Sequence record: PZ583743.1
DNA: 64,000 nucleotides
Origin: a phage
Strand: one strand, 5' to 3'
The translations under genes were made by a program, and so were the position numbers. The notes under the pieces are model-generated. The model was not told where the DNA came from. It made no database searches and saw only the letters and a list, made by a program, of their open reading frames with translations. Position 1 is the first letter of the stretch. The number at the start of each line of letters is the position of its first letter. Shown here piece after piece: positions 30,288-30,743 of the stretch.

Positions 30288-30743
30288 TTATTTTAAATCG
30301 TCTGCCCAATCGAGTTTAAGAGGCTCTTTGTATTCACGATCTAATACGACCGGAATTTGTACATCACCGCTAAATGATAAGGGTCCAACATTATAAGACA
30401 ATGTTATATGCGGTGTGTAATCATCAAAATCATGTGTAGCACCTAGTGCCCGCGCATACATGTGTCTACAGCGCAGATATTCAGAATCTAGCACAAGTAC
30501 AAGAGTCGATCCATCTTGTGTTTTCCATACTTCTAAATGTCCAGAAGAAGCTACTTCAAAACTTCCGCTTGATGGAACATACGGAACATTTACTCTTGAA
30601 TAACATATAGTCGAATGAATTTTTTCTCTAGGAACTGGATTAGGAACACGTAAAGAGCGCTGAAGTTCTTCCAGCGCATCAAGTGTTAATTCTGAAAACT
30701 TAGCTGCTACATAAAGACCCGTTGAAAAGTCTTTAAATTCCAT
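30288..30743 (-). CDS. 57B: gp57B, 2H-phosphoesterase (Acb1-type anti-CBASS nuclease)
   Basis: 151 aa; two H-x-T/S motifs (HSTI, HITL); position next to 57A as in T4. Confidence 0.85.

What the first reader, a model, noticed from the sequence alone, without database searches (positions are those of the whole stretch)
30288..30743. gp57B/Acb1-type 2H phosphoesterase, with candidate partners in the vs region
The 57B product has two H-x-T/S motifs (HSTI, HITL) typical of 2H phosphoesterases and matches the T4 57B position; T4 57B is the anti-CBASS nuclease Acb1. One of the small vs-region ORFs (18010..18768) may correspond to the T4 vs.4-type cyclic-nucleotide sponge Acb2, but I cannot confirm that from sequence.
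Basis: established knowledge. Interest (0 to 1): 0.4.

Follow-up and report, generated by a model that had tools for sequence, protein, structure and literature searches.

The report
T4-type Acb1 and Acb2 anti-CBASS genes
This T4-like phage carries the two already characterised T4 genes that disarm the bacterial CBASS immune alarm, an enzyme that cuts the cyclic-nucleotide signal (57B/Acb1) and a small protein that soaks it up (vs.4/Acb2), so the finding is correct but ordinary.

Summary
The observation and the interpretation both hold, and both describe known biology. The window is a mosaic Tequatrovirus (T4-like) genome segment.

- **Acb1.** The minus-strand ORF 30288..30743 (151 aa) is 100% identical to residues 2-152 of T4 57B/Acb1. 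It matches Pfam PF23474 (Acb1) at E=2.6e-60 and the solved Acb1 structure 7T26 at E=4e-62. It keeps the catalytic HxT/HxT tetrad (H43/T45/H112/T114, which is T4 H44/T46/H113/T115) and all published ligand-contact residues.
- **Acb2.** Of the three ORFs in 18010..18768, only the middle one, 18288..18554 (88 aa, minus strand), is Acb2. It is 84/88 identical to T4 Vs.4 (PDB 7UQ2, E=3e-55) and matches PF24729 at E=3.7e-19. Y8, K23 and F82 are conserved. The flanking vs.3 and vs.5 show no resemblance to Acb2.
- **Relationship.** The two genes lie about 12 kb apart in separate gene clusters. They are independent, complementary CBASS counter-measures, not physical partners.
- **Differences from T4.** There is a one-codon shorter Acb1 start (TAATG instead of ATGATG). 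Acb2 has four substitutions at naturally variable positions.

Novelty: already known. Interest is low.

The parts
30288..30743 (-). Gene 57B = acb1, a 151-aa 2H-phosphoesterase-type anti-CBASS nuclease (stop codon 30288..30290).
   Evidence: ORF. PF23474 Acb1 E=2.6e-60. PDB 7T26 E=4.1e-62, 96/142 identical. 151/151 identical to T4 NP_049750 residues 2-152. PHROG 755.
30609..30617 (-). First catalytic motif, H43-S44-T45 (T4 numbering H44/T46).
   Evidence: Sequence read directly. Residue check. Role from Hobbs 2022.
30402..30410 (-). Second catalytic motif, H112-I113-T114 (T4 numbering H113/T115).
   Evidence: Sequence read directly. Residue check. Role from Hobbs 2022.
30291..30314 (-). C-terminal lid of Acb1 (window residues 144-151 = T4 145-152). 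It includes W146 (T4 W147), which stacks on the ligand.
   Evidence: Identity to T4 Acb1. The lid is described in Hobbs 2022. W146 confirmed.
30741..30745 (-). TAATG junction. The 57A stop codon overlaps the acb1 start codon, which suggests translational coupling. T4 has ATGATG/TGA here, giving one extra N-terminal Met.
   Evidence: Searches compared directly.
18288..18554 (-). Gene vs.4 = acb2, an 88-aa cyclic-dinucleotide sponge.
   Evidence: PF24729 Acb2_Tad1_hairpin E=3.7e-19. PDB 7UQ2 Vs.4 E=3.2e-55. 84/88 identical to T4 Vs.4. Y8, K23 and F82 are invariant in 10 homologues.
18531..18533 (-). Acb2 Y8 codon, the tyrosine that stacks on the cyclic dinucleotide. Y8A abolishes binding in T4 Acb2.
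   Evidence: PMC12657218.
18010..18288 (-). vs.3 (92 aa from the ATG that overlaps the vs.4 stop in TAATG). It is a neighbour, not Acb2. The 106-aa GTG-start ORF 18010..18330 is a mechanical extension.
   Evidence: PHROG 2037, unknown function. hhalign against the Acb2 profile gives probability 1.5%.
18547..18768 (-). vs.5 (73 aa), a neighbour that overlaps the vs.4 start by 8 nt. It is not Acb2.
   Evidence: PHROG 1986 matched full length, unknown function. hhalign against the Acb2 profile gives probability 0.4%.
30743..30985 (-). 57A, the tail-fibre assembly chaperone, immediately upstream of acb1. It serves as a synteny anchor.
   Evidence: PF17594 E=5.2e-51. T4 annotation.

Best explanation
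The window comes from a T4-like (Tequatrovirus) phage and carries both known T4 anti-CBASS genes. Acb1 (57B, 30288..30743, minus strand) is a metal-independent 2H phosphoesterase. It clamps 3'-5'-linked cyclic di- and trinucleotides that contain adenosine (3'3'-cGAMP, cUA, cAAA, cAAG) in a U-shaped pocket closed by a C-terminal lid. Its HxT/HxT tetrad then cleaves 3' of adenosine, which destroys the CBASS second messenger. Acb2 (vs.4, 18288..18554, minus strand) forms a hexamer that sequesters cyclic dinucleotides at dimer interfaces through Y8 stacking and K23 salt bridges, without degrading them. Because it keeps D61 and the T4-type pocket residues, it is predicted, like T4 Acb2, not to bind cyclic trinucleotides, which leaves those signals to Acb1. 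The two proteins act independently and overlap in coverage, and together they keep CBASS effectors unactivated. Shown here: the sequence identity, the motif and residue conservation, and the synteny. Inferred from published work on the identical or near-identical T4 proteins: the enzymology, the binding and the in vivo role.
For: **Acb1**
- 151/151 identity to T4 57B.
- PF23474 at E=2.6e-60.
- 7T26 at E=4.1e-62, 68% identity over 142 columns.
- H43/T45/H112/T114, Y11, W73, F106, E140 and W146 are all present. These correspond to the residues defined by Hobbs et al. [quoted passage not shown]

**Acb2**
- 7UQ2 (T4 Vs.4) at E=3.2e-55.
- 84/88 identity to T4 Vs.4.
- PF24729 at E=3.7e-19.
- Y8, K23 and F82 are invariant across 10 homologues, while the four positions that differ from T4 (13, 14, 17, 58) vary naturally.
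- T4 Acb2 binds cyclic dinucleotides but not cA3 or cAAG. Its pocket residues Y37, A57, L60, D61, T64 and T68 (PMC10312549) are all retained here.

**Context and genetics**
- Gene order matches T4: 1-57A-57B-ipI, and regB-vs.3-vs.4-vs.5-vs.6.
- T4 lacking both acb1 and acb2 is highly sensitive to a type II CBASS (bioRxiv 10.64898/2026.03.04.709575).
Against: Nothing in the sequence argues against this reading. The caveats are these:
- No activity can be measured here.
- The Acb2 allele differs from T4 at four residues. One is a charge change (K58 for E58) next to the occluded trinucleotide pocket, so strict equivalence of ligand spectrum is inferred, not shown.
- Expression timing rests only on promoter-like patterns.
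Confidence: 0.96

Rival explanations
1. 57B is an RNA ligase or LigT-like 2'-5' RNA ligase / cyclic phosphodiesterase that acts on RNA (for example tRNA repair), as many database records label it, and is not an anti-CBASS enzyme.
For: PHROG 755 is labelled 'RNA ligase'. RefSeq T4 and many phage records annotate 57B as 'RNA ligase'. The 2H fold is shared with LigT-type enzymes.
Against: The label is a homology-derived legacy annotation. The identical T4 protein was purified by activity-guided fractionation as the cGAMP-degrading activity of T4 lysates, and it cleaves cyclic oligonucleotides in vitro (PMC9117128). Pfam now places it in a dedicated Acb1 family at E=2.6e-60.
Confidence: 0.02
2. 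The Acb2-type sponge in 18010..18768 is vs.3 or vs.5, not vs.4, or more than one of these ORFs is a sponge.
For: All three are small, acidic, tightly packed ORFs of unknown function in the same cluster.
Against: Only 18288..18554 hits PF24729 and 7UQ2. Against a 10-sequence Acb2 profile, hhalign gives vs.3 a probability of 1.5% and vs.5 a probability of 0.4%. Neither has a Pfam hit above threshold.
Confidence: 0.01
3. Acb1 and Acb2 are true partners, meaning a physically interacting or co-regulated module, not two independent counter-defences.
For: Both are widespread in Straboviridae-type phages: 1471 phage records carry an Acb1 homologue and 1232 carry an Acb2 homologue. The double deletion in T4 gives strong CBASS sensitivity.
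Against: The genes are about 12 kb apart, in different gene clusters with intervening promoter-like sites. Each protein works alone in vitro and was discovered independently. The deletions behave differently: acb2 but not acb1 is needed to trigger Panoptes.
Confidence: 0.02

Closest known systems
Phage T4 Acb1 (gene 57B, NP_049750.1; Hobbs et al. 2022)
   Same: It is identical in all 151 residues (T4 residues 2-152), including the HxT/HxT tetrad, the stacking aromatics, E141 and the C-terminal lid. It occupies the same position between 57A and ipI.
   Different: It lacks the first of T4's two tandem Met codons. The 57A/57B junction is TAATG instead of ATGATG with an overlapping TGA. There are a few synonymous nucleotide differences.
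Erwinia phage FBB1 Acb1 (crystal structures 7T26/7T27)
   Same: It shares the 2H phosphoesterase family. It aligns end to end (query 8-148 against chain 1-142), with both catalytic motifs conserved.
   Different: It is only about 68% identical (96/142), with a one-residue indel.
Phage T4 Vs.4 / Acb2 (NP_049728.1; PDB 7UQ2; Jenson 2023, Huiting 2023)
   Same: It has the same length (88 aa) and is 84/88 identical. Y8, K23, F82, D61 and T68 are retained. It lies between vs.5 and vs.3 with overlapping start and stop codons.
   Different: There are four substitutions, written window/T4: D13/E, D14/E, S17/G, K58/E. All are at positions that vary among homologues. This exact allele is rare in the phage collection, with 1 record at >=99% identity.
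Pseudomonas phage PaMx33 Acb2
   Same: It shares the fold family (Acb2/Tad1 hairpin) and the Tyr/Lys cyclic-dinucleotide pocket.
   Different: PaMx33 Acb2 also binds cyclic trinucleotides through R67/T74 and a kinked helix. The T4-type protein here has D61 at the R67 position and is expected to lack that pocket.

Membership tests
Acb1 (Pfam PF23474; anti-CBASS 2H phosphoesterase) | A whole-protein match to the family profile above the curated threshold. | tested here: met
   202.7 bits against a cut-off of 27, E=2.6e-60, covering profile positions 1-144 of 144.
Acb1 (Pfam PF23474; anti-CBASS 2H phosphoesterase) | Two HxT/S motifs forming the catalytic tetrad (T4 H44, T46, H113, T115). | tested here: met
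   H43-S-T45 and H112-I-T114 are the only H-x-[TS] matches in the protein, and they align to the motifs in 7T26.
Acb1 (Pfam PF23474; anti-CBASS 2H phosphoesterase) | Ligand-contact residues: the stacking aromatics Y12, W74, F107 and W147, and the adenine-reading E141. | tested here: met
   All are present at window positions 11, 73, 106, 146 and 140. The residue roles come from PMC9117128.
Acb1 (Pfam PF23474; anti-CBASS 2H phosphoesterase) | A compact 2H phosphoesterase fold. | tested here: met
   This was tested by sequence only: 68% identity and E=4.1e-62 to the solved Acb1 structure 7T26 over nearly full length. No structure prediction was run, because it was not needed.
Acb1 (Pfam PF23474; anti-CBASS 2H phosphoesterase) | Cleavage of 3'-5'-linked cyclic di- and trinucleotides and relief of CBASS restriction. 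| not testable with these tools
   This was shown experimentally for the sequence-identical T4 protein (PMC9117128). It is inferred here by identity.
Acb2 / Vs.4 (Pfam PF24729 Acb2_Tad1_hairpin; cyclic-nucleotide sponge) | A whole-protein match to the family profile above the curated threshold. | tested here: met
   69.1 bits against a cut-off of 27, E=3.7e-19, covering profile positions 1-58 of 58.
Acb2 / Vs.4 (Pfam PF24729 Acb2_Tad1_hairpin; cyclic-nucleotide sponge) | Cyclic-dinucleotide pocket residues (T4 Y8 and K23, which are PaMx33 Y11 and K26). | tested here: met
   Y8 and K23 are present and invariant in 10 homologues ranging from 100% down to 52% identity.
Acb2 / Vs.4 (Pfam PF24729 Acb2_Tad1_hairpin; cyclic-nucleotide sponge) | Near-identity to a member with a solved ligand-bound structure. 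| tested here: met
   7UQ2 (T4 Vs.4) at E=3.2e-55, aligned over residues 1-88. 84/88 identical to T4 Vs.4.
Acb2 / Vs.4 (Pfam PF24729 Acb2_Tad1_hairpin; cyclic-nucleotide sponge) | Homohexamer assembly and nanomolar binding of 3'3'-cGAMP without cleavage. | not testable with these tools
   This is published for T4 Acb2 (Kd about 84 nM for 3'3'-cGAMP). It is inferred here from 95% identity.
Acb2 / Vs.4 (Pfam PF24729 Acb2_Tad1_hairpin; cyclic-nucleotide sponge) | A second pocket for cyclic trinucleotides (PaMx33 R67 and T74). This is a subfamily trait, not a defining feature. | tested here: not met
   The window protein has D61 and T68, as T4 does, and keeps Y37, A57, L60 and T64, which occlude the pocket in T4 Acb2. 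This predicts binding of cyclic dinucleotides only.

The most novel reading that the evidence does not exclude
The rare Acb2 allele in this phage (D13, D14, S17, K58; only one phage record at >=99% identity) might have a shifted ligand spectrum compared with T4 Acb2. For example, it might bind the Panoptes decoy 2',3'-c-di-AMP more weakly, letting the phage keep CBASS evasion while escaping Panoptes. Alternatively, the E58K charge reversal beside the occluded trinucleotide pocket might alter that pocket.
Probability: 0.04. Interest if true: 0.4.

Novelty: already known. Interest (0 to 1): 0.08.

Why it matters
It matters mainly for annotation. Many database records still call 57B 'RNA ligase' and vs.4 'hypothetical protein', although both are experimentally defined anti-CBASS proteins. 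Recognising both in this genome predicts that the phage evades most CBASS systems that signal with cyclic di- and trinucleotides. It also predicts that its intact Acb2 makes the phage detectable by decoy-nucleotide guard systems such as Panoptes. No new biology is implied.

Tried and rejected
- **vs.3 or vs.5 as the Acb2 candidate.** I tested whether vs.3 (18010..18288) or vs.5 (18547..18768) could be the Acb2 candidate. They have no Pfam hit above threshold, and hhalign probabilities against an Acb2 profile are 1.5% and 0.4%. Rejected.
- **The 106-aa GTG-start ORF 18010..18330.** It is a mechanical extension. The T4-equivalent start is the ATG at 18288, which overlaps the vs.4 stop.
- **Structure source.** I recalled the Acb1 crystal structure as coming from phage FE44. 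The paper says Erwinia phage FBB1, so this was corrected.
- **Shared promoter.** I looked for a common promoter or other link between the two loci. The sigma-70-type scans were no richer than shuffled sequence. Motif searches gave only pattern-level candidates: a MotA-box-like site at 31747..31722 upstream of gene 1, and early-promoter-like sites after 57B and after vs.3. There is no evidence of co-regulation.
- **Possible adaptive changes in Acb2.** I checked whether the four Acb2 substitutions fall on conserved positions. They do not.

Full report
**What the window is.** Megablast of 29000..33000 and of 1..25000 against the phage collection returns hundreds of Tequatrovirus (T4-like) genomes at 93-98% identity. 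One stretch is 100% identical to Shigella phage CT01, and no single record matches the whole window. A blastn map against T4 (NC_000866) shows the window is collinear with roughly T4 45.8-91.3 kb and beyond, at 88-98% identity, with a handful of replaced or inserted segments. The genes discussed here are on the minus strand, as in T4.

**Checking the observation.** An ORF lies exactly at 30288..30743 on the minus strand (151 aa). It contains exactly two H-x-[TS] motifs: HST(I) at residues 43-45 and HIT(L) at 112-114. Two tripeptide motifs alone would be weak evidence, but the whole-protein statistics are decisive.
- Pfam PF23474 'Anti-CBASS protein Acb1' matches at E=2.6e-60, 202.7 bits against a gathering score of 27, over the full 144-position profile.
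- The solved Acb1 structure 7T26/7T27 matches at E=4.1e-62, with 96 of 142 columns identical.
- BLASTP gives 151/151 identity to T4 57B residues 2-152.
- The neighbours are 57A (PF17594, E=5e-51) upstream and ipI (PF11634, E=2e-53) downstream. This is the T4 arrangement.

**Acb1 anatomy and mechanism.** Hobbs et al. 2022 (PMC9117128) identified T4 57B as the cGAMP-degrading activity of T4 lysates and named it Acb1.
[quoted passage not shown] - Y12, W74, F107 and W147 stack on the bases, E141 reads adenine N6, and the H44/T46/H113/T115 tetrad performs metal-independent acid-base catalysis 3' of adenosine.
- H44A/H113A is inactive.

Every one of these residues is present in the window protein, shifted by -1: Y11, W73, F106, W146, E140 and H43/T45/H112/T114. 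The shift arises because the window has a TAATG junction, where the 57A stop overlaps the 57B start. T4 has ATGATG with an overlapping TGA. The window product therefore lacks one of T4's two N-terminal methionines and is otherwise identical. The residue conservation is shown here. The enzymology is inferred from identity to the characterised protein.

**The vs-region candidate.** The interval 18010..18768 holds three minus-strand ORFs. A DNA alignment with T4 at 98% mean column identity shows them to be vs.3, vs.4 and vs.5. Only the middle one, 18288..18554 (88 aa), is Acb2.
- It matches PF24729 'Acb2/Tad1 hairpin domain' at E=3.7e-19.
- It matches PDB 7UQ2 'Vs.4' at E=3.2e-55 over residues 1-88.
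- It is 84/88 identical to T4 Vs.4.
- vs.3 and vs.5 have no Pfam match above threshold, belong to PHROGs of unknown function, and score hhalign probabilities of 1.5% and 0.4% against a 10-sequence Acb2 profile.

The cluster is tightly packed. The vs.6 stop and vs.5 start form TAATG, vs.5 overlaps vs.4 by 8 nt, and the vs.4 stop and vs.3 start form TAATG. The listed 106-aa GTG-start ORF 18010..18330 is a mechanical extension of vs.3.

**Acb2 anatomy and mechanism.** Published work shows that Acb2/Vs.4 forms an interlocked hexamer that binds three cyclic dinucleotides at dimer interfaces. Binding uses a stacking Tyr and a Lys salt bridge (PaMx33 Y11/K26). T4 Acb2 Y8A loses binding, and the F82C escaper binds poorly.

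T4 Acb2 binds 3'3'-cGAMP at about 84 nM but not cA3 or cAAG. It has D61 where PaMx33 has R67, and an unkinked helix in which Y37, A57, L60, D61 and T64 occlude the trinucleotide pocket. The window protein keeps Y8, K23, F82, Y37, A57, L60, D61, T64 and T68.

It differs from T4 at four positions: D13, D14, S17 and K58, where T4 has E, E, G and E. In an alignment of 10 homologues ranging from 100% down to 52% identity, those four columns vary freely, while Y8, K23, F82 and the N- and C-terminal segments are invariant. I therefore predict the T4 phenotype: a sponge for cyclic dinucleotides with no trinucleotide binding. This is an inference.

**How the two relate.** They are about 12 kb apart in different gene clusters. 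Promoter-like patterns lie between them. These include an early-type TTTACA-N17-TACTAT site just after 57B, a near-consensus site after vs.3 upstream of regB, and a MotA-box-like site upstream of gene 1. The generic scans were no richer than shuffles, so these are pattern-level only.

Each protein works alone in vitro, and the two deletions behave differently: acb2 but not acb1 is needed to trigger Panoptes. T4 lacking both is highly sensitive to a type II CBASS. Cao et al. note that T4's possession of both suggests broad CBASS evasion. 'Partners' is thus correct in the sense of complementary counter-defences. Acb1 covers adenosine-containing 3'-5' di- and trinucleotides. Acb2 covers a broad set of dinucleotides, including 2'-5'-linked ones. 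There is no evidence for a physical or operonic partnership.

**Comparison with the known, and novelty.** Both genes are members of their families by every testable criterion. Acb1 is the T4 protein itself. Homologues are common: 1471 phage records carry an Acb1 homologue, 499 of them at >=99% identity, and 1232 carry an Acb2 homologue. The only particulars are the one-codon start difference and a rare but conservative Acb2 allele, seen in one record at >=99% identity.

The legacy database labels ('RNA ligase' for 57B, 'hypothetical protein' for vs.4) are out of date and do not represent a competing function. The finding is correct, already known, and of low interest. The residual novel reading, that the Acb2 allele has a shifted ligand spectrum, has low probability because the changes lie at variable positions.

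Noticed in passing
window 18547..18768 (-): vs.5 is a 73-aa ORF here that matches PHROG 1986 end to end. The T4 reference has a 1-bp deletion near the 5' end (alignment column 82) and annotates only a 58-aa vs.5. The T4 reference copy may therefore be frameshifted or N-terminally truncated.
   Followed up: partly
window 21393..21590, 22069..22365, 26695..27258 (all -): Three extra ORFs of 65, 98 and 187 aa begin with the MK(T/M)Y.EF capsid-targeting-type N-terminus seen in T4 internal proteins. They are additional to ipII (20275..20577), ipIII (20686..21267) and ipI (29928..30215). The 65-aa ORF hits the PHROG 2667 'internal head protein' family. They are probably variable injected proteins, some of which are anti-restriction factors in T-even phages.
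   Followed up: partly
window 21597..22022 (-): A denV-like ORF, only 78% nucleotide-identical to T4 denV, lies between ipIII and e. In T4 denV lies between vs.8 and ipII, so this is a local rearrangement relative to T4.
   Followed up: no
window 27679..28873 (-): The tRNA cluster has 10 genes: Arg, Asn, Tyr, Met(CAT), Thr, Ser, Pro, Gly, Leu and Gln. T4 has 8, so Asn and Tyr are extra. The Met(CAT) gene sits where T4 annotates tRNA-Ile. The segB homing endonuclease is absent, and an ORF of unknown function (27679..28029, PHROG 3355) lies beside the cluster.
   Followed up: partly
window 32385..33059 (-): A 224-aa ORF with weak HNH motifs lies between genes 3 and 2, where T4 has only a short spacer. 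Related phages annotate a homing endonuclease at this site, so it is probably a mobile element insertion.
   Followed up: partly
window 11287..12278 (-): The T4 mobD homing endonuclease is replaced by two ORFs: a 157-aa predicted membrane protein, and a 173-aa y05I-like protein (PF24449/PF24448) that looks like a paralogue of the adjacent mobD.1-type gene.
   Followed up: partly
window 9750..10013 (-): An 87-aa DUF4031 ORF (E=1.5e-21), plus a 72-aa ORF at 10010..10228, is inserted between nrdC.10 and nrdC.11. Neither is present at this position in T4.
   Followed up: no
window 2005..2393 (-): The T4 49.2/49.3 segment is replaced by two small ORFs. One matches DUF7205 (E=2.5e-11). The other has a sub-threshold match to the T7 gp5.9 RecBCD-inhibitor family (E=0.004, 17.5 bits against a cut-off of 24.5), which is probably a chance match.
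   Followed up: no
window ~37198: T4 segC and 5.3 are missing. The alignment jumps from T4 80215 to 80778 with no window sequence in between.
   Followed up: no
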